From the IMG/VR virus record IMGVR_UViG_2737471857_000019: DNA of 33,990 nucleotides; one strand, given 5' to 3'. This document shows positions 12,179 to 33,990 of this stretch, in pieces. Each line of letters begins with the position of its first letter. Within the stretch, counting starts at the first letter, position 1. The DNA comes from a virus (lineage: Duplodnaviria > Heunggongvirae > Uroviricota > Caudoviricetes). The position numbers and the translations under genes are program-made. The notes under the pieces were generated by a model. It was given only the letters and a program-made list of their open reading frames with translations. It made no database searches and was not told where the DNA came from.

Positions 12179-12919
12179 ATGCAAAAACAGATTATTGGTA
12201 ACGCAACGTTGTATTGCGGTGATGTTCTTGATGTGCTGCCAGCGTTATCCGAACGTTTTGATGCCGTCATTACCGACCCGCCTTACAGCAGTGGTGGCAC
12301 ACATAAATCAGACCGCAGCATAGCCCCTTCGGACAAGTATGTCGGTCACACCCGGTATGCCGAGTTCACCGGCGATAACCGCGACCAGCGCAGCTGGGCG
12401 TTCTGGTGTTCCATGTGGATTTCTCATGCATTGCACAGGCTGAATCCCGGCGGTTATTTCATGGTGTTCAGTGACTGGCGACAACTACCGGCGCTTACCG
12501 ATGCATTTCAGGCCGGTGGTGTGCTGTGGCGTGGTCTGGTTGTCTGGGATAAAACGCAGGCTTCCCGTGCGCCACACACCGGCTATTTCCGGCATCAGGC
12601 CGAGTATGTGGTCTGGGGCAGCAACGGAAAACTCGACAAATGCCCGCACGGTGGCCCGTTCCCTGGTGTGATTACGCAGCGTGTTGTCCCGTCTGAAAAA
12701 CTGCACATGACCGCAAAGCCAGTTCAGCTGATGGCCGAGCTGGTTAAACCGCTGGCACCGGATGCGCACGTCCTCGATCCGTTTATGGGAAGCGGCACCA
12801 CCGCCATCCCTGTACTTGCCCGTGGCGGACGGTTTACCGGCATTGAAATGACTAACCAGTATTTTGATATCGCCTGCGCACGTATCGAAAAAGCGCAGGC
12901 AGAAGCAGCGCAGGTGTGA
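12179..12919 (+). CDS. orphan DNA methyltransferase, beta-class (N6-adenine or N4-cytosine), 246 aa
   Basis: Motif IV DPPY near the N-terminus and motif I FMGSGTT near the C-terminus; no adjacent restriction endonuclease. Confidence 0.8.
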   Translation: MQKQIIGNATLYCGDVLDVLPALSERFDAVITDPPYSSGGTHKSDRSIAPSDKYVGHTRYAEFTGDNRDQRSWAFWCSMWISHALHRLNPGGYFMVFSDWRQLPALTDAFQAGGVLWRGLVVWDKTQASRAPHTGYFRHQAEYVVWGSNGKLDKCPHGGPFPGVITQRVVPSEKLHMTAKPVQLMAELVKPLAPDAHVLDPFMGSGTTAIPVLARGGRFTGIEMTNQYFDIACARIEKAQAEAAQV

Positions 12920-14564: not shown

Positions 14565-16160
14565 ATGGCACAGCTTGTTGATATTTACGGACGCCCGCTG
14601 AAACGTGAGGCACTCAAAACCACGCAGTCGGTCAGAGTGGCAGAACGGCTGCGCATTTATCCCGACCACCCGTCCCGTGGTCTGAATATCAGAAAACTGC
14701 CGCGCATTCTGGAAGCTGCCGAACGCGGCTATCTTCCGGCGCAGGCGATGCTGTTTGCGGATATGGAAGAACGTGATGGCCATCTGTTCGCAGAGATGGA
14801 AAAGCGCAAAAAAGCCTTGCTGACGCTGGACTGGTCGGTGGAGCCGCCCCGCAATGCCTCGAAGGCAGAAAAGGAGCTGGCCGCCGCCGTGGATGACTGG
14901 CTGCACGGTATCCCGGACATGGAGGACATCATCCTCAACGGGATGAGTAGTGTCGGTTACGGCTTCAGCTGTCAGGAAATCAGCTGGGCGTTCGTGGATA
15001 AAACGTGGTTACCGGATGCGGTGACGCTGCGCCCGCATAACTGGTTCATTACCCTGCCGGAACACAATGACGAACTCCGCCTTGATGACGGCAACCGTGG
15101 GGAAGATGGTAAGGACGGCTCCGCACTGTGGCCGTTCGGCTGGCTGGTTCATCGTTACAACGCCCGGTCGGGGTTCCTGGGTTCATCCGGCCTGTTCCGC
15201 GTACTGGTCTGGCCGTATCTGTTTAAAAACTTTGCGTTGCGTGATATGGCGGAATTTCTGGAGATTTACGGCCTTCCGGCGCGCATTGCGTACTATGCAC
15301 AGGGCACCAGTGACGAAGACCGGGACAACATTCTCGAAGCCCTGGTTAATCTGGGCCATGAAGCGGTGGCAGCCCTGCCGCAGGGTAACGAAATCGAGTT
15401 CAAGGAAGCCGCGTCCGGTGGGCCGGAGGCGTTCATGTCGATGGTGGAATGGGCGGAGCGTACCACCTCAAAAGTGATTCTGGGCAGTACGCTGACCAGC
15501 CAGGCTGACGGTAAAACCTCCACCAACGCGCTGGGTAATGTGCATAACGAGGTCCGGCACGACATTCTGGCCGCCGATGCGCGCCAGCTGTCCGGCATGT
15601 TCAGCAGCCTGATACAGATGATGGCCAGCCTCAACGGCTGGCAGGATATCCCGCCACGCCGTCTGCCGCGTCTGGTGTTTGATGTGCAGCAGGAAGCCGA
15701 CATTAAGGGGGTGGCGGAAGCCGTCAGTGTGCTGGTCAACAATGTGGGAATGAAGGATATCCCGGTGTCGTGGGTGCGCAAAAAAACCGGTATCCCCACC
15801 CCGAAAGACGGCGAAGAGGTACTGGTTCCGGTGGCACAGCGTCTCCCTGTGCAGGCCGGTCTCAGCCAGCTGCGTGAGCGGATGAATGTTGCCGCACTCA
15901 GTCAGCAGGACAACGGGGAGGACGACCCGGCACAGCGCGCCATCGACCGGGCAGCACTTCCGGCAGAGGCCATCGCGCAGGGAATGAACGAACTGGTGGC
16001 CCCGCTGGTGCAGGCCATACAGGAAGGCCGGAATGCAGACGAGGTCATGAACGTACTGGCGGATGCATGGACGGAGCTGCCGGATGACACACTGCGGCAG
16101 TTGCTGGCGCAGGCATTCTTTGTGGCGGATATCTGGGGGCGACTGAATGCCGACAGCTGA
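14565..16160 (+). CDS. portal protein (Mu gp29 / DUF935-like)
   Basis: 531 aa ORF immediately after the terminase; Mu synteny. Confidence 0.75.
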   Translation: MAQLVDIYGRPLKREALKTTQSVRVAERLRIYPDHPSRGLNIRKLPRILEAAERGYLPAQAMLFADMEERDGHLFAEMEKRKKALLTLDWSVEPPRNASKAEKELAAAVDDWLHGIPDMEDIILNGMSSVGYGFSCQEISWAFVDKTWLPDAVTLRPHNWFITLPEHNDELRLDDGNRGEDGKDGSALWPFGWLVHRYNARSGFLGSSGLFRVLVWPYLFKNFALRDMAEFLEIYGLPARIAYYAQGTSDEDRDNILEALVNLGHEAVAALPQGNEIEFKEAASGGPEAFMSMVEWAERTTSKVILGSTLTSQADGKTSTNALGNVHNEVRHDILAADARQLSGMFSSLIQMMASLNGWQDIPPRRLPRLVFDVQQEADIKGVAEAVSVLVNNVGMKDIPVSWVRKKTGIPTPKDGEEVLVPVAQRLPVQAGLSQLRERMNVAALSQQDNGEDDPAQRAIDRAALPAEAIAQGMNELVAPLVQAIQEGRNADEVMNVLADAWTELPDDTLRQLLAQAFFVADIWGRLNADS

Positions 16161-17313
16161 CGATGTTGACCTGGGGTATGCGTACACACTGAAACCGGAA
16201 GAAGCGATTAAGTATTTCGAAAGTAAGGGATACGTTATCGGCTTCCGCTGGCACGATGTGAAGGATATCGCCAACGCCCGGGCGTTCACGGTGGCGGGCG
16301 TGCTGAAACTGGATGTGCTGAAGGATATCCGTGATGGCCTGACGGCCGCACTGGCTGACGGCGGGACGTTCCGGGAGTTTGCTGCACAACTGGAGCCACT
16401 GCTGGAGAAAAAAGGCTGGCTGGGTAAAAAACTGATTGTGGACGAGGACACCGGCGAACTGCACGGCAGACAGCTGACGCCGCGCCGGTTGCGCACGATA
16501 TTTGATACCAACATTCAGTCGTCCTACAACGCCGGACGTTATCAGCAACAGATGGCGAACGTGGCCGACCGGCCTTATTTTGAGCGCGTGGCGGTGATGG
16601 ACCTTCACACACGCCCGAAACACGCCGCCCTGAACGGCTTTACCGCCCGGGCGGATGACCCGGTCTGGGAGTATTTCTACGCCCCTGACGGGTACGGATG
16701 CCGCTGCCGTATCCGGGCGCGTTCGGCGTCTGATGTGGAGAAATATGGCCTGACGGTGCAGAGCAGCGAGGGGCGACTGGTTGAGGTTGAGCAGGAATAT
16801 GGCCAGCCGGGCCTGACCATCAGAACAATGGGACTGAAGATGCCGGACGGCTCCGTGTATACCGCCGACCCGGGCTTCGGATTTAATCCCGGTCGGGTGG
16901 CATGGCAGCCGGAACTGGAGAAATATGATTACCGCAGTGCCCGCCAGTATGTCACCGGCACTCTGACCGGGCCGGATTTTGCCCGGGGACTGGCGAACGT
17001 CAGCGAACTGGATGCGCGCCAGCGATATCCGCTGGCCATCCGTTCACCGGAACAGGTCGCCGCCACGGGCGCTGCACGGCAGACGGTAAACCTTACGGCT
17101 GACGTTATGAAGCGCCTCAGTGCAACAGACACGCCCCCGGCCGCCGCCGACTATGTGCTGATGCAGCAGACCATCGAACGGGCGGAGCATGTCACGCAGG
17201 ACGGCAACGCGTGGCGGTATGCGTTACAGTCGGGCGACCGCTGGTCAGTGGCGACGGTTGAGGATGACGTGCTGACAGACTGGGTTATGCAGGATACCCC
17301 GGAGGCATCATGA
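16147..17313 (+). CDS. head morphogenesis protein (Mu F / SPP1 gp7 family)
   Basis: 388 aa ORF overlapping the portal stop; Mu synteny. Confidence 0.7.
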   Translation: MPTADDVDLGYAYTLKPEEAIKYFESKGYVIGFRWHDVKDIANARAFTVAGVLKLDVLKDIRDGLTAALADGGTFREFAAQLEPLLEKKGWLGKKLIVDEDTGELHGRQLTPRRLRTIFDTNIQSSYNAGRYQQQMANVADRPYFERVAVMDLHTRPKHAALNGFTARADDPVWEYFYAPDGYGCRCRIRARSASDVEKYGLTVQSSEGRLVEVEQEYGQPGLTIRTMGLKMPDGSVYTADPGFGFNPGRVAWQPELEKYDYRSARQYVTGTLTGPDFARGLANVSELDARQRYPLAIRSPEQVAATGAARQTVNLTADVMKRLSATDTPPAAADYVLMQQTIERAEHVTQDGNAWRYALQSGDRWSVATVEDDVLTDWVMQDTPEAS

Positions 17314-17860
17314 GCAACGGTAAACTGGATATTAAGATTGATTTAAGCGCGTATAACACCACGCTGGGGAAACTGATTCGTTCCGTGAAGGACCGGCGCG
17401 ATCTGATGACGGCACTTGCGGGTTCCATGCTGGATGCGGTTGAGACTAACTTTGAACAACAGGGGCGCCCGAAATGGATGGGCTGGAGTCCGGCTTATGC
17501 GAAACGGCGCGGCCCCGGGCAAATCCTTCAGAAATCCGGGCGACTGGCTGCCAGTATCCGCTCTGCGGTTAACAATAACGAGGCCACGGTCGGGACAAAC
17601 GTCCGTTATGCCCGTATCCACAACGAAGGCGGCGAAATCCGCCATCAGGCACGGACGCAGAACCTGTATTTTAAACAGTACAAAAACGGCAGCGTCAGCA
17701 CCCGCTTTGTGAAAAGCGCAACAGTAATTTTGTGCAGAGCGCAACGGTCGGAGCGTATACGGTCAACATGCCCGCGCGCCCCTTCCTTCAGCTTGTACAG
17801 GACGACATCGACGAGCTGGAGAACACCGCAAACCGCTATTTTGCGCGTGTGATTGACTGA
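17310..17860 (+). CDS. virion morphogenesis protein (Mu G-like), apparently frameshifted by a 23 bp near-tandem duplication
   Basis: Frame of 17310 runs to 17852 with an aberrant tail; the frame shifted by -1/+2 encodes ...NMPARPFLQLVQDDIDELENTANRYFARVID and stops at 17860; duplicated segments 17706-17728 and 17729-17751. Confidence 0.6.
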
Positions 17861-18013
17861 ATGACCACAAACGCGCTGTAATCGTCTGTGGCAACATAAA
17901 CGCCTCACGGATGAGGCATTACAGCACCGCACCCCGTAAATGCTGTCAGAATCGTTTTTAAAAGGGTTTTAAAAACGGTTTTATTTCCCCTTTTATCCTT
18001 TCGCGTTATGGCT

Positions 18014-18040
18014 GGGTGCTGAACACCCTCCACAGTACCC
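18014..18040 (+). promoter_or_regulatory. late-block dyad motif copy B (GGGTG-CTGAA-CACCC then CAGTACCC)
   Basis: Shared with 10005-10032 and 29764-29781; lies 20-47 nt upstream of the protease/scaffold start. Confidence 0.5.
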
Positions 18041-18060
18041 CGTGTTCCCCTTCCGTCATC

Positions 18061-19185
18061 ATGCCGCGTATGAAACTGAACATTGCGGCGTTAAGCCTCG
18101 AAATTACTAAAGCAACCCACAGCGAAATCCAGCTGTTTCCGGCGGGCGAGTTCAGCGCGGTGGATGGTCGCCCACATACCGATGAAGTCGAAAGCGGTAA
18201 ATGGGTGCTGACCGCTGAACTGGCCGCGCAGCTTGTCGCGCAGGTGGCCGCCCGTACCACGCCTTTTGTCATTGATTACGAACATCAGACGCTGCGCGCC
18301 GTAAACAACGGCAAGCCCGCCCCGGCGGCGGGCTGGTTCAGCCAGGTGGAATGGCGAGAAGGCGCGGGCCTGTATGCCACCGGTGTGGAGTGGACGGATA
18401 ACGCGGCGGCCATGATTGCCGCCGGTGAGTACAAATTTATTTCCCCTGTTTTTGCCTACAACAAGCGCGGCGAAGTGCTGGAGCTGTTACATGCTGCGCT
18501 GACCAATACCCCGGCGCTCGACGGTATGGACGCGGTCATGCTGGCTGCGGCCAGCCGTCTGGCGAGTCTGTCAACTGAAACGGAGAACACAACGGTGGAT
18601 GAAGAACTGTTAAACGACTTGCTGTCCAGTCTGCGCTGGATGCTTAACCTCCCGGTTACCTCAACGGCGGAAGATATCAAAAACGAGCTGCAAAAGGTCG
18701 TTGACATGATTTCGAACGGTCAGGGAACGGCGGCGGCATCCGTCAGCCTGCTGGCCCTGCTGAATCAGAAAGACGAGCAAATCGCCAGCCTGTCAGCCAG
18801 TGCCTATGACCCGTCAAAACACATTTCCCTTGCGGCCTTTGAAGAACTTCAGGGGCGTTATGCCGCACTGGCGCAACAGTCCGGTGAGGCCGAAGCCGGG
18901 GCACTGATTCAGGCGGCGCTGTCTGACGGGCGACTGCTTCCGGCGCAGGAAGACTGGGCGAAAGATTACGCCAGCCGCGATATCAACGGCTTTAAGTCCT
19001 GGCTGGATAACGCACCAAAACTTGTTGCACTCAGTCAGACCCAGACCGGCGGTAAACCACCCCAAACGCCGTCGCCTGCCCCGGCGCAGATTAAAACCGG
19101 TGATGACATCGATGTCGATATCGCCATTTGTTCAATGATGGGCGTTGATCCAGAGGATGTCGCCCGTTACGCAGGAGACAAGTAA
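18061..19185 (+). CDS. head protease/scaffold protein (Mu I-like)
   Basis: Position after G and before the major head gene; track start 18016 is a GTG inside the conserved motif, ATG 18061 preferred. Confidence 0.7.
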   Translation: MPRMKLNIAALSLEITKATHSEIQLFPAGEFSAVDGRPHTDEVESGKWVLTAELAAQLVAQVAARTTPFVIDYEHQTLRAVNNGKPAPAAGWFSQVEWREGAGLYATGVEWTDNAAAMIAAGEYKFISPVFAYNKRGEVLELLHAALTNTPALDGMDAVMLAAASRLASLSTETENTTVDEELLNDLLSSLRWMLNLPVTSTAEDIKNELQKVVDMISNGQGTAAASVSLLALLNQKDEQIASLSASAYDPSKHISLAAFEELQGRYAALAQQSGEAEAGALIQAALSDGRLLPAQEDWAKDYASRDINGFKSWLDNAPKLVALSQTQTGGKPPQTPSPAPAQIKTGDDIDVDIAICSMMGVDPEDVARYAGDK

Positions 19186-19591: not shown

Positions 19592-20500
19592 GTGATAGTC
19601 AACGTTAAAAACGTCAAACAGATTTTTATCAATCTGAAGGCCACCTTCCAGAAAGCCTTCGACCAGTCACCAACTGACTGGCAGAAGGTGGCAATGGAAG
19701 TGCCATCAAACGGCAAGGAGAACGACTACAGCTGGTTAAGTCGTTTCCCGAAAATGCGCGAGTGGATTGGTGACAAGGTCGTTAAATCACTGGCGGCATT
19801 TAACTACACCATCCGTAACAAGGACTGGGAAGCCACGGTTGAAGTCGATCGTAACGACATCGAGGACGACCAGATTATGGGCTATGCCCTTCAGGCGAAA
19901 GGGGCCGGACAGTCGGCGGCAGAGCTACCAGCAGATATTGTGGCGTCCCTTATCAGTAACGGTTTTACCAATCCCTGTTACGACGGTCAGATGTTCTTTG
20001 ATACCGACCACCTGGTCGCCGGTAAATCGGTGTCCAACAAAGGCACCAAAAAACTCAAAGTTGGCTCGCTTGCCGAGGCGAAAGCCTCCTACGGTGCCGC
20101 CCGTACGGCCATGCGTAGTCTGAAAGATGACGAAGGCGCATCCCTCAAAATTCGCCCGAATCTGCTGGTTGTGCCACCGGCGCTGGAGGATGACGCGAAC
20201 TACCTGATGACCGCCGAGAAGTTCCCGGACGGCACGCCGAACCCGTACCGCAATACCGCCGAAGTGCTGGTGATGCCGGAGCTGGCGTCGGATTCTGCGT
20301 GGTTCCTGTTTGACACCACCAAACCAGTGAAACCGCTGATTTATCAGCTGCGTAAAAAGCCTGTTTTTGTGGAGCAGACGGACTACAACAGCGACAACGT
20401 GTTCAAGCGTAAGAAGTTCCTGTTTGGTGCCGAAGCGCGCTGTAACGGCGGTTACGGCTTCTGGCAGATGGCATTTGGTTCTGATGGTACGACGGAGTAA
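19592..20500 (+). CDS. major head subunit (Mu T-like)
   Basis: GTG 19592 with a strong AGGAG SD 6 nt upstream; about 300 aa; Mu synteny. Confidence 0.75.
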   Translation: MIVNVKNVKQIFINLKATFQKAFDQSPTDWQKVAMEVPSNGKENDYSWLSRFPKMREWIGDKVVKSLAAFNYTIRNKDWEATVEVDRNDIEDDQIMGYALQAKGAGQSAAELPADIVASLISNGFTNPCYDGQMFFDTDHLVAGKSVSNKGTKKLKVGSLAEAKASYGAARTAMRSLKDDEGASLKIRPNLLVVPPALEDDANYLMTAEKFPDGTPNPYRNTAEVLVMPELASDSAWFLFDTTKPVKPLIYQLRKKPVFVEQTDYNSDNVFKRKKFLFGAEARCNGGYGFWQMAFGSDGTTE

Positions 20501-23555: not shown

Positions 23556-23930
23556 ATGTCCATTAAAGAATATGTCGGCTCGATTGTGCTGGAGGTGGAC
23601 AGCCAGGAAATCGAGATCACCGACTTTGATGTTCAGATCAACACCGGGCGAAAGCTGGTCAAGACCATGAACAAAACCGGCAGGGCCAAAGGCTTTGCCC
23701 GTGGCATTGCCACTTACGATATTTCAGTTTCGGCGGTTATCCCTGATACCAACGAGCCGGACTGGGAAAATCTGGAAGGTGTGAAAATCTCAATTTATCC
23801 GCTCAGTAACAGCGGTAAGCGCACCTCTTATCTGGACTGCTTCACCGTTGAAGTGGGTGAGAAATACACCGTCGACAGTGAAGCGAAAATTGATATCAAA
23901 ATGGCTGCACTCAGGAAGGTGACAGGATGA
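23556..23930 (+). CDS. tail tube protein (Mu M-like)
   Basis: 124 aa ORF after the sheath gene. Confidence 0.7.
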   Translation: MSIKEYVGSIVLEVDSQEIEITDFDVQINTGRKLVKTMNKTGRAKGFARGIATYDISVSAVIPDTNEPDWENLEGVKISIYPLSNSGKRTSYLDCFTVEVGEKYTVDSEAKIDIKMAALRKVTG

Positions 23931-24310
23931 CTTTGATTAATACACAGACTGGCGAACTGTCTGATGGCGTGGTGTTTAACGGCACCGTTCATAAAAACTT
24001 TGAGCTGCGTCTGCCGGTCATGCGTGATAACGGGCAGGCACTGGAAGAAACGGAAGAACGCTTTCAGACGGTGGATGGCTTCGCGGCGGATTATTACTAC
24101 CGCTGTGCGGTGATGGTGGCAACGCTGGTCCGTCTGGGGGATATTCCGCAGGAAGAACTGACGGCGGAGCTGTTACACGACAACATGACGCCGGACGATT
24201 TTAATATTCTGCTGGCATCACGCAACGTCCTGAAGGTAAAGCGGAACGGCGGGAATCCCGGCTCGCCGGACTCCGGCTCGCAGTCCTCATCCTCGGGCGC
24301 TACGGAATAA
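23927..24310 (+). CDS. tail assembly chaperone (short form)
   Basis: 127 aa ORF immediately upstream of the tape measure gene. Confidence 0.6.
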   Translation: MTLINTQTGELSDGVVFNGTVHKNFELRLPVMRDNGQALEETEERFQTVDGFAADYYYRCAVMVATLVRLGDIPQEELTAELLHDNMTPDDFNILLASRNVLKVKRNGGNPGSPDSGSQSSSSGATE

Positions 24311-24483
24311 CCGAAGAGCAAATCATGACCATGAGCCGTCCCGAGCTGGACGGCTGGCTTGCCGCCGTTGACAGGCTGAACGGCGGCGGCTCAGGAAGGA
24401 AGGACACCTCACAGACCACCCGCCAGTCATTTAAATCCCTCAGAAAGAAACGCAGAAAAGGTAAGCAGAAAAATGGCCGGTAA
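24290..24483 (+). CDS. -1 frame extension of the tail assembly chaperone (putative programmed-frameshift long form)
   Basis: The -1 frame is open across the chaperone 3' end and stops at TAA 24481-24483, overlapping the tape measure ATG 24473; slip site not identified. Confidence 0.45.
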
Positions 24484-26695
24484 TTTCAAAGTTGGCATGA
24501 CCCTGACTGCGAAGGACGAAGCCTCGCAGGTTCTGGAAAAGGGAAAAAAGAAGGTTGTAAAAGCCACTGAAGGAGTGGAAAAAGCAACCAAAAAGGCAGG
24601 TCAGGAACAGAAACGCACCGATGATGAGAGCGTCAACAGCACAAAAAGGGTTGTCACCGAATTACAGCGTGCAGCCCGTGCCCGGGAAACGCTTGGCATC
24701 CGTTCGGAGCATGAAATCCGTCGGGAAATCGCCCTTACTGAAGCCAGTTATAACCGCCTTGCCCGTAGTGGCGTTATGTCTGCCCGCGAACAGGCGCGGG
24801 CATGGCGTGCCACGAAAGAGCAAATCCGGGAACTGAAGCGGGAAATGCGTGGTGTCGGCACGCTGGCAAAGGCGGCCAATATTGGCGGCAACGTCCTGAC
24901 GATTGGTGGTGGTATCGCAGCAGGTGCGGCCATTATGGCGCAGCCGGTCAAAAAGCAGATGAGCTACGAACGCCGGCTGGCAATGATGGCCAATACCGCC
25001 TTCAGTGATGGCGGGCTGGAAGGGCGCAGGGCTGGTCTTGAGCAGATGAAAAGCAGCATCCGTAACGCGGTGACCTATGGCGGCGGTACGAAAGAAGACG
25101 CAGCCGAAACACTGGATGCCCTGCTGAAAGACGGCATTTCATTTGACACAGCCAACAAGTGGCTGCCTGAACTGATGAAATACGCCACGGCTTCTGGTGC
25201 ATCTGCAACAGACCTGGCCAACGTAATGGTCAAAGGAAAAAAGACCTTTGGATTCAGGGATGAAGATATTTCCACCGTTCTGAATATGGCGATTGCAGCG
25301 GGCAAAGAAGGCAGCTTTGAACTGAACGACATGGCCCGCTGGTTATCCCAGCAAATGGGCGCTGCGTCAGCTGCGGGGATGAAAGGCAAAGATGATTTCG
25401 TCAAGATTCTGGCGCTGAATGAAGCTGCCGCCATCACGGCTGGAAGCAGTGATGAAGCCGGAAATAACGTGGTTAACCTGCTGGCAAAACTGACCAGTAA
25501 GGATATTGAAACAGCGGCTGCGGGGATAAATTACAACGGTAAGGGAATCGACTTTTCCGGCACGCTGACTGAAGCACGTGAGAATGGACTTAATCCGATA
25601 GACGCGCTGTCCAGCCTGATAGACAAAATCGTTGCCAGCGATAAACGCTATCAGGAGCTGCAAAAGAAACTGGCCTCCGCCCGGGATAAAGGCGAGCAGA
25701 CGGCTGTTTATGATTCGATGGCAACACTCCTTGAAGGCTTTGGTGTCGGAAAGCTGGTTGCAGACCGTCAGGCGTTGATGGCGTTGTTAGCCTACCGTAA
25801 CAACCCTGAATACCGGAAAAAGGTTGAAGACGCGATTAATCAGCAGCGCACCCTGCCGGAAGGCCAGCGCGCGGGTGATGTGGATTTTAACTTCATATCC
25901 GGCCTCAATGACTTTAAAACCGAACAGGCTAAAAACACGCTTGAATTTTCACAAATGGACAGCATGAAAAAGCTGGCGGATGCGTCCGGTACTGTGGCCG
26001 ATGCCATAAGCTGGGCGGGTGAAAAATTTCCGGGGCTGACCACAGCAGTGGTGGGTGCCACGACCGCGATTGAAGCGATGACCGCAGCGGCTCTGACATG
26101 GGCCGGGATCAAAATCCTGACCGGGGGTAAACCCGGTGGCAAGGCTGGCGAGGTTGTCGGTGATGTAATTGAAAACACGGTCAAAAAAGGCAAAGGATTT
26201 AAATTCCCCGGCATTGCCGGTAGCCTGCTTTCTTTCGGTGGCACCGTTACGGCACTGGCCACCGCAACCAGCCCGGAAGAAGACGCCGCCGTCGAAGGAA
26301 GCGAAGAACGCTGGAAACGCATCCGCGCCCGATATCCCCAGGAAATCATCGACGCCGCCCGCAAAAAATACCAGCCATGGTGGCAGTTTGGGGAAGGCTA
26401 TTCCACCGAAAACGAAGAATGGTTGAGGCGCTGGGAGGAAGACACGAAAAAAGCCGCATCTGATGCCCTGCCATCACCGGCGCAGGTTAACAAAGCCGCA
26501 GGAAACACAACGCCTGAACCGGCATCAACGCAACCCGGACGCATCACCCAGCCGGAATACCTCACGCACTGGGGGCCACCTGCCAGCCCCATTAATTTCA
26601 CCACACAACTGGTGCTCGATGGTCAGGTCGTGGCGGAGGCAGTGAACAAATACAACCTTCAGGACGGTAACAGAGGCACGGGAGGAACTTACTGA
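24473..26695 (+). CDS. tail tape measure protein
   Basis: 740 aa Ala/Gly-rich protein between the chaperone and the DNA circularisation gene. Confidence 0.8.
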   Translation: MAGNFKVGMTLTAKDEASQVLEKGKKKVVKATEGVEKATKKAGQEQKRTDDESVNSTKRVVTELQRAARARETLGIRSEHEIRREIALTEASYNRLARSGVMSAREQARAWRATKEQIRELKREMRGVGTLAKAANIGGNVLTIGGGIAAGAAIMAQPVKKQMSYERRLAMMANTAFSDGGLEGRRAGLEQMKSSIRNAVTYGGGTKEDAAETLDALLKDGISFDTANKWLPELMKYATASGASATDLANVMVKGKKTFGFRDEDISTVLNMAIAAGKEGSFELNDMARWLSQQMGAASAAGMKGKDDFVKILALNEAAAITAGSSDEAGNNVVNLLAKLTSKDIETAAAGINYNGKGIDFSGTLTEARENGLNPIDALSSLIDKIVASDKRYQELQKKLASARDKGEQTAVYDSMATLLEGFGVGKLVADRQALMALLAYRNNPEYRKKVEDAINQQRTLPEGQRAGDVDFNFISGLNDFKTEQAKNTLEFSQMDSMKKLADASGTVADAISWAGEKFPGLTTAVVGATTAIEAMTAAALTWAGIKILTGGKPGGKAGEVVGDVIENTVKKGKGFKFPGIAGSLLSFGGTVTALATATSPEEDAAVEGSEERWKRIRARYPQEIIDAARKKYQPWWQFGEGYSTENEEWLRRWEEDTKKAASDALPSPAQVNKAAGNTTPEPASTQPGRITQPEYLTHWGPPASPINFTTQLVLDGQVVAEAVNKYNLQDGNRGTGGTY

Positions 26696-31823: not shown

Positions 31824-32626
31824 TGCAGAATTTAATGCCCCCGGTGAATACGCCGGATAAGTTATTTCATGATGGTGACCCGACTCAGGGAATTGAGGGA
31901 ACCATCGTTACTGCTGAATTTATGAATAATCATCAGGCAGCAACGCGTGATTTGCAGCAGGAGGTGATTAACGTCCTTAAAGAGGCTGGCGTCACCCCTG
32001 ACCCGGAAAAACAAAACCAGCTGGTTGAGGCGCTGACCTCGTTTATTGGTCAGAAAGTCCCGGATGCATCACTGACGCAAAAAGGCGTGGTGCAGCTTAA
32101 CAGTGCTGTTAACAGTGAATCAGAAACAGAAGCTGCCACACCAAAAGCGGTCAAAATTGCGATAGATAACGCAAACGCCAGACTGGCAAAAGACCGTAAC
32201 GGCGCAGACATCCCGAATAAACAGTTGTTTCTGGATAACATCAGCGGTGTGCCAAAAGCACGCAAGGTCAACGGTATGGCCCTGACTTCGGATATCACCA
32301 TCAGCAGCATCAGCGGCAACGCCGGAACAGCAACCCGCCTTCAGAACGCCCGCAGAATCAACAATGTGCTGTTTGATGGCTCCAGCGATATCACAATCAC
32401 CAGTACCGATTCTGGTGCTGTGCGTAATTTCCAGTATACCAACGAGGTGTTTCATAATCCCGGCGGTACTGAAATTACATGGACATTCCGGGCACCTTCC
32501 GGCTGTCAGTTGTCAGGCATTTATGTCCAGGAAACGGGAGATAATACAGCAGACAATATCGGTGGTGTGTATTACAAATCCGCGCAGATTTATATCAATG
32601 GCTCATGGCGCACCGTATCCGGTTAA
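31823..32626 (+). CDS. tail fibre protein (short, 267 aa)
   Basis: Motif TQKGVVQLNSAVNSESETEAATPKAVK typical of phage tail-fibre N-terminal regions; followed by a Tfa-like gene. Confidence 0.7.
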   Translation: MQNLMPPVNTPDKLFHDGDPTQGIEGTIVTAEFMNNHQAATRDLQQEVINVLKEAGVTPDPEKQNQLVEALTSFIGQKVPDASLTQKGVVQLNSAVNSESETEAATPKAVKIAIDNANARLAKDRNGADIPNKQLFLDNISGVPKARKVNGMALTSDITISSISGNAGTATRLQNARRINNVLFDGSSDITITSTDSGAVRNFQYTNEVFHNPGGTEITWTFRAPSGCQLSGIYVQETGDNTADNIGGVYYKSAQIYINGSWRTVSG

Positions 32627-32640
32627 TTAAGGAGAAAATA

Positions 32641-33165
32641 ATGGAACTCAGAAACGTCACGCGTTATTACCCGGAAGAAATGCCTTATGGTGAAAACATT
32701 CAGTATTTCCGCAGTGAAGACGGACAGGATTTTTATGAATCACTGGATAAATTCACGAAGAAATACAAATTGTGTATTCACCCTGAAACCGGCGTGATTT
32801 ATTCGATGGCGGAAGACGTGTCCCGTCTTTATCCGGCTGGTTTCACTATTGTGGAAGTGGACGAACTGCCGGAGGGTTTTGGCATTGAAGCCTGCTGGTA
32901 TTACCGGGATGGCGAAGTGCTGCCGGTTCCGGTTGATTATTCGCAACTGGCAGAAAAGCAACGCCAGCGTCTTCTGGCTGAAGCCAGGGACATCACCTCC
33001 GACTGGAAAACCGAGCTGGGACTGGGCACCATCAGCGACGATGACAAAGCCCGTCTTACGCAGTGGATGGCATATATCAAAGCGGTGAAGGCGCTCGATT
33101 TAAGCCTGGTCAGTGATAAATCTTCCTTTGATTTAATTCAGTGGCCGGAAAAACCTGACGTGTAA
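32641..33165 (+). CDS. tail fibre assembly chaperone (Tfa / Mu U-like)
   Basis: ATG behind AAGGAG; C-terminus resembles the lambda Tfa family as recalled. Confidence 0.65.
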   Translation: MELRNVTRYYPEEMPYGENIQYFRSEDGQDFYESLDKFTKKYKLCIHPETGVIYSMAEDVSRLYPAGFTIVEVDELPEGFGIEACWYYRDGEVLPVPVDYSQLAEKQRQRLLAEARDITSDWKTELGLGTISDDDKARLTQWMAYIKAVKALDLSLVSDKSSFDLIQWPEKPDV

Positions 33166-33171
33166 AACAGT

Positions 33172-33197
33172 AACGGTCGCTGTCTGGTGACCGTTTT
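33172..33197 (+). terminator. rho-independent terminator after the tail-fibre assembly gene
   Basis: Stem AACGGTC/GACCGTT with a 10 nt loop, followed by TTTT. Confidence 0.6.
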
Positions 33198-33213
33198 CAG
33201 TTCAGAAGGCTTT

Positions 33214-33990
33214 ATGTCTGTATTAATTTCAGGAGCGCTGATTAATGGCGCTGGCATTCCGATGGCGGAATGCAAAATTTATTTAGATGCACTGGTTAAT
33301 ACCAGTGAAGTGGTTATTGAATCATTTGCGGTTATTGAAACCGATGCGGCGGGACAGTATGCCTTTGAAGCACAAAAAGGCAAATACACCGTACACATCA
33401 AACAAAAGAACGGCCCTAAGTGCTGTGTGGGTGATATTTCGGTTTACGATGACTCAAAGCCCGGCACACTGAATGATTTTCTGACCGCGCTGGATGAAGG
33501 CGACCTCAAGCCCGACGTGGTGAAACGCTTTGAGGAAATGGTGGCGCAGGCGCAGCAGAGCGCGGAAGCAGCAGCGGAAAGCGAGCGACAGGCCGGGCAA
33601 CATGTCGCTGATGCGCAGAAGATAAAGGAAGACTGCGAGACGCTGGCGGATAACGTACAGCAGAATGCAGAAGCCGTTGCCGAAGACAAAAATCAGGTGG
33701 CGTTGCTGGCGTCATCTGCCACACAGGATGCGGCCCGCGCAGAGCAGGCTGTCAAGGATGCCGACACGATAGTCCGGAAAGCGGTCGATAAACTTGCTGA
33801 TGCCGCAACGCTGACCGGCGAGGCAAAGGCCAGTGCCGAAGCTGCCGCACAAAGCGAACAGAATGCGGAAAATCACGCTGATAATGCAGCACAAAGCGCA
33901 CAGCAGACCGCGCAGGATGTGGAGGCAACGGTCACCGCACGTGATGATGCGGAACGTTTTGCGGGTGAGGCAGAAAACAGCGCACAGACA
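33214..33990 (+). CDS. second tail fibre, lambda Stf-like N-terminal domain with Ala-rich coiled-coil shaft; 5' partial, runs off the window
   Basis: MSVLISGALINGAGIPMAECKIYLDALVNTSEVVI...GTLNDFLTALDEGDLKPDVVKRFEEMV resembles the lambda Stf N-terminus as recalled; no stop before 33990. Confidence 0.65.
   Translation, partial: MSVLISGALINGAGIPMAECKIYLDALVNTSEVVIESFAVIETDAAGQYAFEAQKGKYTVHIKQKNGPKCCVGDISVYDDSKPGTLNDFLTALDEGDLKPDVVKRFEEMVAQAQQSAEAAAESERQAGQHVADAQKIKEDCETLADNVQQNAEAVAEDKNQVALLASSATQDAARAEQAVKDADTIVRKAVDKLADAATLTGEAKASAEAAAQSEQNAENHADNAAQSAQQTAQDVEATVTARDDAERFAGEAENSAQT

What the first reader, a model, noticed from the sequence alone, without database searches (positions are those of the whole stretch)
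17675..17860. Virion morphogenesis gene appears frameshifted by a 23 bp near-tandem duplication
Segments 17706-17728 (TTTGTGAAAAGCGCAACAGTAAT) and 17729-17751 (TTTGTGCAGAGCGCAACGGTCGG) match at 17 of 23 positions and encode FVKSATV / FVQSATV in the same codon phase. After the duplication the original frame gives a low-complexity Arg/Ser/Thr-rich tail to 17852, while the shifted frame encodes ...NMPARPFLQLVQDDIDELENTANRYFARVID ending at 17860, which looks like the genuine conserved C-terminus. Deleting one copy restores a single ~157 aa protein, the size of Mu G. This is either an inactivating lesion (a defective prophage), a sequencing or assembly artefact, or a recoding site.
Basis: partly seen in the sequence, partly recalled or inferred. 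Interest (0 to 1): 0.5.

Follow-up and report, generated by a model that had tools for sequence, protein, structure and literature searches.

The report
One-base deletion breaks prophage tail-completion gene
A Mu-like prophage gene needed to finish the virus tail is knocked out of frame by the loss of a single A from a run of five, not by a 23-base duplication; this is an ordinary inherited prophage-decay mutation.

Summary
The frameshift is real, but its cause was misread. Window 17310-17860 is the G-like "virion morphogenesis" (tail completion, Pfam PF05069) gene of a Mu-like prophage. All 55 matching complete E. coli genomes have one more base here. The window has GTG-AAAA-GC (17712-17715) where they have GTG-AAAAA-GC. 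Adding one A gives a 183-aa protein 100% identical to WP_050937630.1.

Both "23-bp repeat units" are present in every intact homologue. There they read FVKKRNSN/FVQSATVG. This motif is conserved down to about 32% identity and lies a fixed 22 residues from the PARPF motif. So no duplication event occurred. FVKSATV is just the out-of-frame reading of unit 1.

The A4 allele is not a one-off sequencing error. The exact 180-aa aberrant product is found on at least 14 contigs. The five contigs compared come from separate samples (two NCBI assemblies, three SRA runs) and are gap-free against the window, with slightly different haplotypes. G is the only one of 51 prophage genes split across frames.

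I found no slippery heptamer, no stimulatory RNA structure and no conservation of the two-frame layout, so programmed recoding is unsupported.

The lesion replaces the last 48 residues (two strands, the PARPF loop and the C-terminal helix). Mu gpG mutants are non-infectious. Verdict: an ordinary prophage pseudogene, of low interest.

The parts
17310..17714 (+). 5' part of the G-like tail completion / virion morphogenesis gene, in its native frame (residues 1-135). The ATG overlaps the stop of the upstream Mu F-like gene (ATGA).
   Evidence: tblastn of WP_050937630.1 residues 1-135 gives 100% identity at 17310-17714. Pfam PF05069 matches profile positions 2-112 of 148.
17712..17715 (+). The lesion: an A4 run where all intact relatives have A5 (GTG AAA AAG CGC becomes GTG AAA AGC GC), i.e. 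a 1-nt deletion.
   Evidence: Alignment A1. All 55 complete E. coli genomes have 552 nt against 551, and 90 nt against 89. It is the only isolated 1-nt indel in conserved sequence compared with 08-00022.
17716..17860 (+). 3' part of the gene, now in the -1 frame relative to the start. It encodes RNSNFVQSATVGAYTVNMPARPFLQLVQDDIDELENTANRYFARVID plus the stop, which is the genuine C-terminus.
   Evidence: tblastn residues 133-183 map to 17705-17857 in another frame. Pfam profile positions 115-147 are matched. P155, A156, R157, P158 and L160 are invariant in alignment A3.
17715..17852 (+). Aberrant out-of-frame tail of the 180-aa product (SATVILCRAQRSERIRSTCPRAPSFSLYRTTSTSWRTPQTAILRV plus stop).
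   Evidence: This tail has no homologue outside the frameshifted cluster: other hits cover only about 72-75% of the 180-aa query.
17706..17728 (+). In intact genes it has one more A and encodes FVKKRNSN.
17729..17751 (+). 'Repeat unit 2', which encodes FVQSATVG in the genuine frame.
   Evidence: The motif F-x-x-[KR]-x-x-x-N-[FY] lies exactly 22 residues before PARPF in 75 of 91 full-length homologues.
17703..17718 (+). Perfect 6-bp inverted repeat CGCTTT / AAAGCG with loop GTGA. It encloses the A run. No function is claimed.
   Evidence: RNA fold. The overall z-score of -1.0 is not significant.

Best explanation
This is a genuine, heritable single-nucleotide deletion (A5 to A4 at 17712-17715). 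It most likely arose by replication slippage in the homopolymer. It lies in the tail completion protein gene of a Mu-like E. coli prophage (Mu gpG / P2 gpS family, Pfam PF05069). The gene sits between the Mu F-like head morphogenesis gene and the protease/scaffold gene.

Translation from the normal ATG at 17310 is correct for 135 residues. It then shifts frame, so the last 48 residues are replaced by 45 unrelated residues ending at 17852. The lost part comprises two beta-strands, the invariant P-A-R-P-F loop and the C-terminal helix.

The expected result is a non-functional tail completion protein. The prophage would then be unable, or barely able, to make infectious particles, while every other gene compared in the window (50 of the 51 reference CDS) stays in a single frame.

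Shown: the deletion, its inheritance in several datasets, and the loss of conserved structure. Inferred: the slippage origin, the loss of function and the defective-virion phenotype. The 23-nt near-repeat is an ancestral feature of the intact gene and plays no part in the lesion.
For: - All 55 complete-genome homologues are 1 nt longer.
- Alignment A1 places the gap in the A run.
- Adding one A gives a 183-aa protein 100% identical to WP_050937630.1.
- The exact 180-aa aberrant product occurs on at least 14 contigs. These include GCA_000819145.1 and GCA_000798355.1 (100% identical to the window over 20.5 and 9.0 kb) and Logan SRR22857857, SRR25824661 and SRR25825179. The Logan contigs have 6-14 SNPs and zero gaps over 5-11 kb, and all show GTGAAAAGC.
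- G is the only one of 51 reference prophage CDS split between frames.
- It is the only isolated 1-nt indel in conserved sequence.
- Pfam PF05069 coverage drops from profile positions 2-147 to 2-112.
- The AlphaFold model of the intact homologue has strands 141-147 and 150-154 and helix 164-182, with block-mean pLDDT about 78-90, all downstream of the shift.
- PMC11099176 Table 1 lists Mu gpG (Mup31, 156 aa) as a tail completion protein with a non-infectious mutant phenotype.
Against: - No raw reads were inspected, and the sequencing platforms of the assemblies are unknown to me.
- The site is a homopolymer, the classic place for indel errors. One error-riddled contig (L018) shows the same missing A.
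- Loss of function is inferred, not measured.
- Low-level -1 slippage at G-AAA-AG would regenerate the exact wild-type protein. A tail completion protein is a minor virion component, so the allele could be leaky.
Confidence: 0.88

Rival explanations
1. Sequencing or assembly artefact: the true genome has A5 and the base was lost by a homopolymer miscall.
For: The lesion is in a homopolymer. Contig L018 (Logan SRR11434955, protein P0002) has the same missing A together with 7 other gap openings in 2.2 kb, nearly all short deletions in homopolymer runs. This shows the site can be hit by errors. None of the 55 complete genomes and neither of the 2 metagenome contigs carries A4.
Against: Five contigs compared, from separate samples, carry A4 with zero other gaps relative to the window over 5-20 kb. 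They show at least four slightly different haplotypes, counting the window's own. The window has no other frameshifted gene among 51. It has no other isolated 1-nt indel in 21 kb of conserved alignment. An error-prone data set would show many.
Confidence: 0.06
2. Recoding site: the two-frame arrangement is decoded by programmed -1 ribosomal frameshifting (or transcriptional slippage) to give the full-length protein.
For: A -1 slip of tRNA-Lys on G-AAA-AG would give FVKKRNSN, which is exactly the wild-type sequence (direct reading of the sequence). The protein is needed only in small amounts (inference from the tail completion protein literature).
Against: There is no X-XXY-YYZ heptamer in the G frame. 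RNA folding of 17700-17800 is not significant (z -1.0), and the only local hairpin encloses the site rather than following it. The two-frame layout is not conserved: all 55 complete genomes, a 442-member cluster at 90% identity, and homologues down to about 32% identity encode one continuous ORF. Four A's is far below the run length generally associated with transcriptional slippage (own knowledge).
Confidence: 0.04
3. One reading: a 23-bp near-tandem duplication inserted into a roughly 157-aa gene caused the frameshift.
For: There is a 17/23 match between adjacent 23-mers, the only such locus in the window. 23 is not a multiple of 3, and removing one copy restores an ORF. That 175-aa ORF scores marginally higher against Pfam PF05069 than the true 183-aa protein (94.6 against 92.9 bits), because this segment is an insertion relative to the model.
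Against: Every intact homologue carries both units. The corresponding peptide F-V-K-K-x-x-S-N-F is kept at an invariant distance of 22 residues from PARPF in 75 of 91 full-length relatives, including Klebsiella and Pseudomonas phages at 32-51% identity. The units differ at 6 of 23 positions, so they are not a recent duplication. The predicted size is wrong (175 aa, not 157 aa).
Confidence: 0.01

Closest known systems
Bacteriophage Mu gpG (Mup31, UniProt Q01261), a tail completion protein (TCP / Ne1)
   Same: It belongs to the same Pfam family, PF05069. It has the same gene position, immediately after the Mu F-like gene and before the protease/scaffold gene I. The literature classes Mu gpG as a tail completion protein whose mutants give non-infectious particles (PMC11099176).
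   Different: The intact protein here is 183 aa against 156 aa. It carries an insertion of about 35 aa (residues about 114-150, which include the 'repeat units') that is absent from the Mu/BcepMu-type G of phage PhiKM. Sequence identity to PhiKM G is only about 30-34%. The window copy is frameshifted.
WP_050937630.1 and relatives: 'phage virion morphogenesis protein' of E. coli Mu-like prophages (e.g. strains 08-00022, OkiPb01701, E2348/69)
   Same: The DNA is 99.8% identical, with the single gap as the only difference in the gene. The repaired protein is 100% identical. The prophage architecture is the same.
   Different: These copies have A5 and a continuous 183-aa ORF, whereas the window has A4. 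Some of these relatives carry other lesions instead, such as ISCro1 in the tape measure gene of 08-00022.
HK97 gp10-family tail completion protein in the SaPI1/80alpha neck structure (PDB 9mu2 chain P)
   Different: Sequence identity is 15%. There is no sequence-level PDB hit and no significant Foldseek hit. The match is to a predicted model, not to an experimental structure of this protein.
Homopolymer-indel pseudogenes in decaying prophages (general phenomenon, own knowledge)
   Same: It is a single-base loss in a short mononucleotide run that inactivates one structural gene of an otherwise intact prophage. It is inherited in a bacterial lineage.
   Different: Nothing distinguishes this case, other than that a -1 slip at the same spot would restore the exact wild-type sequence.

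Membership tests
Pfam PF05069 Phage_tail_S / tail completion protein (Mu gpG, P2 gpS) | Score above the Pfam gathering threshold | tested here: met
   The 180-aa window ORF scores 79.2 bits and the repaired 183-aa protein 92.9 bits, against a cut-off of 24.3.
Pfam PF05069 Phage_tail_S / tail completion protein (Mu gpG, P2 gpS) | One reading frame covers the whole domain, including the C-terminal P-A-R-P-F segment | tested here: not met
   The window ORF covers profile positions 2-112 of 148 only. Positions 115-147 lie in the other frame (17716-17860). The window copy is therefore a pseudogene of this family.
Pfam PF05069 Phage_tail_S / tail completion protein (Mu gpG, P2 gpS) | Mu-type synteny: portal, then F-like, then G, then protease/scaffold, then major head protein | tested here: met
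   The Pfam calls on L005, which is identical to the window, give PF06074, PF04233, PF05069, PF10123 and PF10124 in that order. The RefSeq annotation of 08-00022 agrees.
Pfam PF05069 Phage_tail_S / tail completion protein (Mu gpG, P2 gpS) | HK97 gp10-like tail completion fold | tested here: met
Pfam PF05069 Phage_tail_S / tail completion protein (Mu gpG, P2 gpS) | Required for infectious virions | not testable with these tools
   This is known for Mu G amber mutants only through PMC11099176 Table 1, which cites Grundy & Howe 1985.
Programmed -1 ribosomal frameshift site | Slippery heptamer X XXY YYZ in the upstream frame within the overlap | tested here: not met
   No such heptamer occurs in frame anywhere in 17310-17850. 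The site reads G-AAA-AGC.
Programmed -1 ribosomal frameshift site | Downstream stimulatory RNA structure | tested here: not met
   For 17700-17800 the MFE is -29.9 kcal/mol against a shuffle mean of -26.4, giving z -1.0. 34 of 200 shuffles fold at least as well.
Programmed -1 ribosomal frameshift site | The two-frame organisation is conserved among homologues | tested here: not met
   55 of 55 complete genomes have a single ORF. So do the members listed from the 442-member cluster (apart from contig-end partials) and all the distant homologues examined.
Tandem duplication lesion | Intact relatives carry one copy of the unit | tested here: not met
   All relatives carry both units. The spacing to PARPF is invariant in 75 of 91 homologues.

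The most novel reading that the evidence does not exclude
The A4 allele may be leaky rather than null. A -1 slip of tRNA-Lys at G-AAA-AG recreates the exact wild-type 183-aa protein. A tail completion protein is needed in only a few copies per virion, so a frameshifting rate of about 1% or less might still allow some infectious particles. The allele has persisted across several prophage haplotypes that continued to exchange capsid-gene segments. That persistence would then reflect a tolerated, or even selected, down-tuning of phage production rather than simple decay.
Probability: 0.08. Interest if true: 0.35.

Novelty: already known. Interest (0 to 1): 0.08.

Why it matters
This matters little beyond annotation. 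It shows that this Mu-like prophage, in the lineage represented by GCA_000819145.1 and GCA_000798355.1, carries a single identifiable lesion in an essential tail-completion gene and is probably defective for infectious particle production.

The locus should be annotated as a frameshifted pseudogene of a 183-aa protein, not as a 180-aa 'phage morphogenesis protein' (GDR85536.1).

It is also a caution on method. A short nucleotide near-repeat next to a frameshift suggested a duplication. Comparison with relatives showed that the repeat is ancestral and that the true lesion is a one-base homopolymer deletion a few bases away.

Tried and rejected
1. 23-bp duplication model: rejected by alignment with close relatives and distant relatives.
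2. Recurrent hotspot or phase-variation idea, prompted by a second frameshifted protein (P0002) on an E2348/69-like allele: rejected. Its only retrievable contig, L018, has 8 gap openings (10 gap bases) in 2.2 kb, nearly all short deletions in homopolymer runs, so it is sequencing noise.
3. Exact-pattern scan of GTDB representative genomes for either allele: no hits, which is uninformative.
4. Metagenome scan: only two hits, both A5.
5. Sequence search of the PDB: nothing below E = 0.6.
7. Promoter/terminator scan around the gene: nothing on the + strand.
8. Nucleotide search of the phage collection: only one weak Klebsiella phage hit. The protein-mode search was needed to reach Mu-like phages.

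Full report
**What is in the sequence.** The window is a Mu-like prophage with all its genes on the + strand. The order is Ner-like gene, transposase A and B, early genes, Mor, lysis genes, terminase, portal (14565-16160), Mu F-like gene (16147-17313), the gene in question (17310-), protease/scaffold, major head gene, sheath, tube, tape measure, baseplate and tail fibre.

- 17706-17728 and 17729-17751 match at 17 of 23 positions.
- The ORF from the ATG at 17310 runs to 17852 with an Arg/Ser/Thr-rich tail (180 aa).
- A second frame carries ...NMPARPFLQLVQDDIDELENTANRYFARVID to 17860.

A period-23 match this good is the only one in the window. It occurs in only 2% of Markov-simulated windows, although looser scans over periods 15-30 expect 1.7 such loci and find 6. 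One figure is wrong: removing one unit gives a 175-aa protein, not about 157 aa.

**What the lesion really is.** The 551-nt gene region matches 55 complete E. coli genomes. Every listed match in the full-gene search (30 of 55) spans 552 nt, and all 55 span 90 nt against an 89-nt sub-query. None is 100% identical.

Aligning the window with four of them shows a single difference in the critical region. The window has GTG-AAAA-GC where all the others have GTG-AAAAA-GC (alignment A1). Adding one A at 17712-17715 produces a continuous 183-aa ORF. It is 100% identical to WP_050937630.1 (strains 08-00022 and OkiPb017xx) and 98-99% identical to the alleles of strains E2348/69 and 47-1826. The frameshift is therefore a one-base deletion in an A5 run.

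**The 'duplication' is ancestral and is not a peptide repeat.** Both units are present in all intact relatives. There they are read as FVKKRNSN and FVQSATVG. FVKSATV exists only as the out-of-frame reading of the first unit after the deletion.

The same peptide is kept in distant homologues:
- Klebsiella phage ST405-OXA48phi1.1 (51% identity): FARKSKANYAEWNTIPAYEIKMPARPF.
- Pseudomonas phages Ps59 and B3 (32-34% identity): FVNRRRANFSQ... and FVPRRRSNFAQ....
- Many enterobacterial homologues.

Among 91 full-length family members, 75 have F-x-x-[KR]-x-x-x-N-[FY], always exactly 22 residues before the P-[AK]-R-P-[FWY] motif. The only two that lack any form of the C-terminal motif are the two frameshifted sequences.

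The Mu/BcepMu-type G of phage PhiKM (152 aa) lacks the whole insertion of about 35 aa that contains these units. This explains why the subfamily is 180-183 aa rather than 156 aa. The Pfam model cannot tell the 175-aa construct from the true 183-aa protein (94.6 against 92.9 bits), because the segment is an insertion relative to the model. Only the comparison with relatives settles the question.

**Real mutation or artefact?** The exact 180-aa aberrant protein is on record on at least 14 contigs (NCBI accession GDR85536.1, named 'phage morphogenesis protein').

| Source | Locus | Comparison with the window |
|---|---|---|
| GCA_000819145.1 (JWZF01000047.1) | L005 | identical over 20,543 nt |
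| GCA_000798355.1 | L007 | identical over 9,049 nt |
| Logan SRR22857857 | L006 | 14 substitutions, zero gaps, 11.4 kb |
| Logan SRR25824661 | L008 | 6 substitutions, zero gaps, 5.6 kb |
| Logan SRR25825179 | L009 | 11 substitutions, zero gaps, 5.1 kb |

All five read GTGAAAAGC. The substitutions cluster at 19987-20406 in the major head gene. The A4 allele therefore sits on at least four slightly different haplotypes, counting the window's own.

Three further results argue against a general error signature in the window:
- tblastn of the 51 CDS of the 08-00022 prophage shows G as the only gene split between frames.
- In 15.6 kb and 5.8 kb alignment blocks against 08-00022, the A-run gap is the only isolated 1-nt indel in conserved sequence. 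The other gaps are in-frame or lie inside divergent mosaic patches.
- By contrast, a second frameshifted protein (P0002) comes from a contig (L018) with 8 gap openings in 2.2 kb, nearly all short deletions in homopolymer runs. That is what sequencing error looks like here, and it is not evidence of recurrence.

The intact protein cluster has 442 members. The exact 183-aa sequence is on 326 contigs and other members are on up to about 150 contigs each. Both metagenome matches are A5. A4 is therefore a rare, derived, heritable allele.

**Recoding?**
- There is no X-XXY-YYZ heptamer in the G frame.
- The RNA around and downstream of the site folds no better than shuffles (z -1.0). The only local hairpin (CGCUUU/AAAGCG) encloses the run rather than following it.
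- The two-frame layout is not conserved in any homologue.

A -1 slip of tRNA-Lys on G-AAA-AG would give the exact wild-type peptide, so some leakiness is conceivable. That is true of any homopolymer deletion, and nothing marks this one as programmed.

**Consequence.**
- The protein is a Pfam PF05069 member. The window ORF covers profile positions 2-112 of 148, and the remainder (115-147) lies in the other frame.
- An AlphaFold model of the intact homologue P0004 (pLDDT 81.8) places strands 141-147 and 150-154, the PARPF loop and helix 164-182 downstream of the shift.
- Foldseek and the sequence search of the PDB found nothing significant.
- Auzat et al. 2024 (PMC11099176, Table 1) list Mu gpG (Mup31, 156 aa) among tail completion proteins, with a non-infectious mutant phenotype.
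- The aberrant ORF ends 8 nt before the normal stop, and the next gene lies 209 nt away, so I expect no polar effect.

My inference is that this prophage cannot make infectious virions, or makes very few.

**Verdict.** The proposed cause is wrong, and the 'inactivating lesion' option is right. This is an ordinary frameshift pseudogene in a prophage: already known in kind and of low interest.

Noticed in passing
window 19987-20406 (major head gene, gpT family): Other carriers of the A4 allele (L006, L008, L009) differ from the window almost only by substitutions clustered in this 420-nt stretch. This looks like a recombination patch in the capsid gene of a prophage that already carries the G frameshift.
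   Followed up: partly
protein P0047 (JGI metagenomes, 7 members), related to P0044: This is another out-of-frame variant in a related G/tail-completion subfamily. After ...YYRQNKDGS it reads LKNPAPTLSTGTLSGRIKLRCPRV..., which appears to be the +1-frame reading (judged by back-translating the P0044 protein, no DNA examined) starting at the same Lys-Lys (A-rich) spot. It also has a short deletion. I did not check whether it is real or a sequencing error.
   Followed up: no
L018 (Logan SRR11434955 contig, 2509 nt): This contig has 8 gap openings (10 gap bases) in 2.2 kb relative to E2348/69, nearly all short deletions in homopolymer runs. Its 180-aa 'frameshifted G' (P0002) and its truncated F gene are sequencing artefacts.
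   Followed up: yes
L010 36002-38617 (E. coli 08-00022 prophage); window 24473-26695: The closest relative with an intact G has an ISCro1 (IS66 family) element inserted in its tape measure gene. RM9088 also carries IS66 insertions. The window's tape measure gene is intact (740 aa). Different members of this prophage family are decaying through different lesions.
   Followed up: partly
window 23927-24480: The 127-aa ORF 23927-24310, just upstream of the tape measure gene, is overlapped by a -1-frame ORF open from about 24205 to 24480. This is the position of the conserved tail-assembly-chaperone programmed frameshift of long-tailed phages (own knowledge). No canonical X-XXY-YYZ heptamer was found in frame.
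   Followed up: partly
window 17861-18069 (intergenic region between G and the protease gene): This is a 209-nt non-coding gap. It has a hairpin GCCTCA-CGGA-TGAGGC at 17902-17917 with no T-run after it, followed by an AT-rich stretch (TTTTAAAAGGGTTTTAAAAACGGTTTTATTT, about 17945-17985). It lies where Mu has its late promoter P_I (own knowledge). The sigma-70 and terminator scan found nothing on the + strand.
   Followed up: partly
window 17703-17718: The deleted base lies within a perfect 6-bp inverted repeat, CGCTTT-GTGA-AAAGCG. In the A5 ancestor the loop is 5 nt. I do not know whether this hairpin favours slippage.
   Followed up: no
window 33166-33990: There is no substantial + strand ORF after the tail fibre assembly gene (32605-33165). 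Mapping to JWZF01000047.1 suggests the window ends about 2 nt from the end of that 70,470-nt contig. The assembly probably breaks in or near the prophage right end or an invertible segment.
   Followed up: no
window 12179-12919: An N6/N4 DNA methyltransferase gene (PF01555) sits between the DUF1804 gene and the terminase large subunit gene, inside the late/structural region. It is 100% conserved in 08-00022.
   Followed up: no
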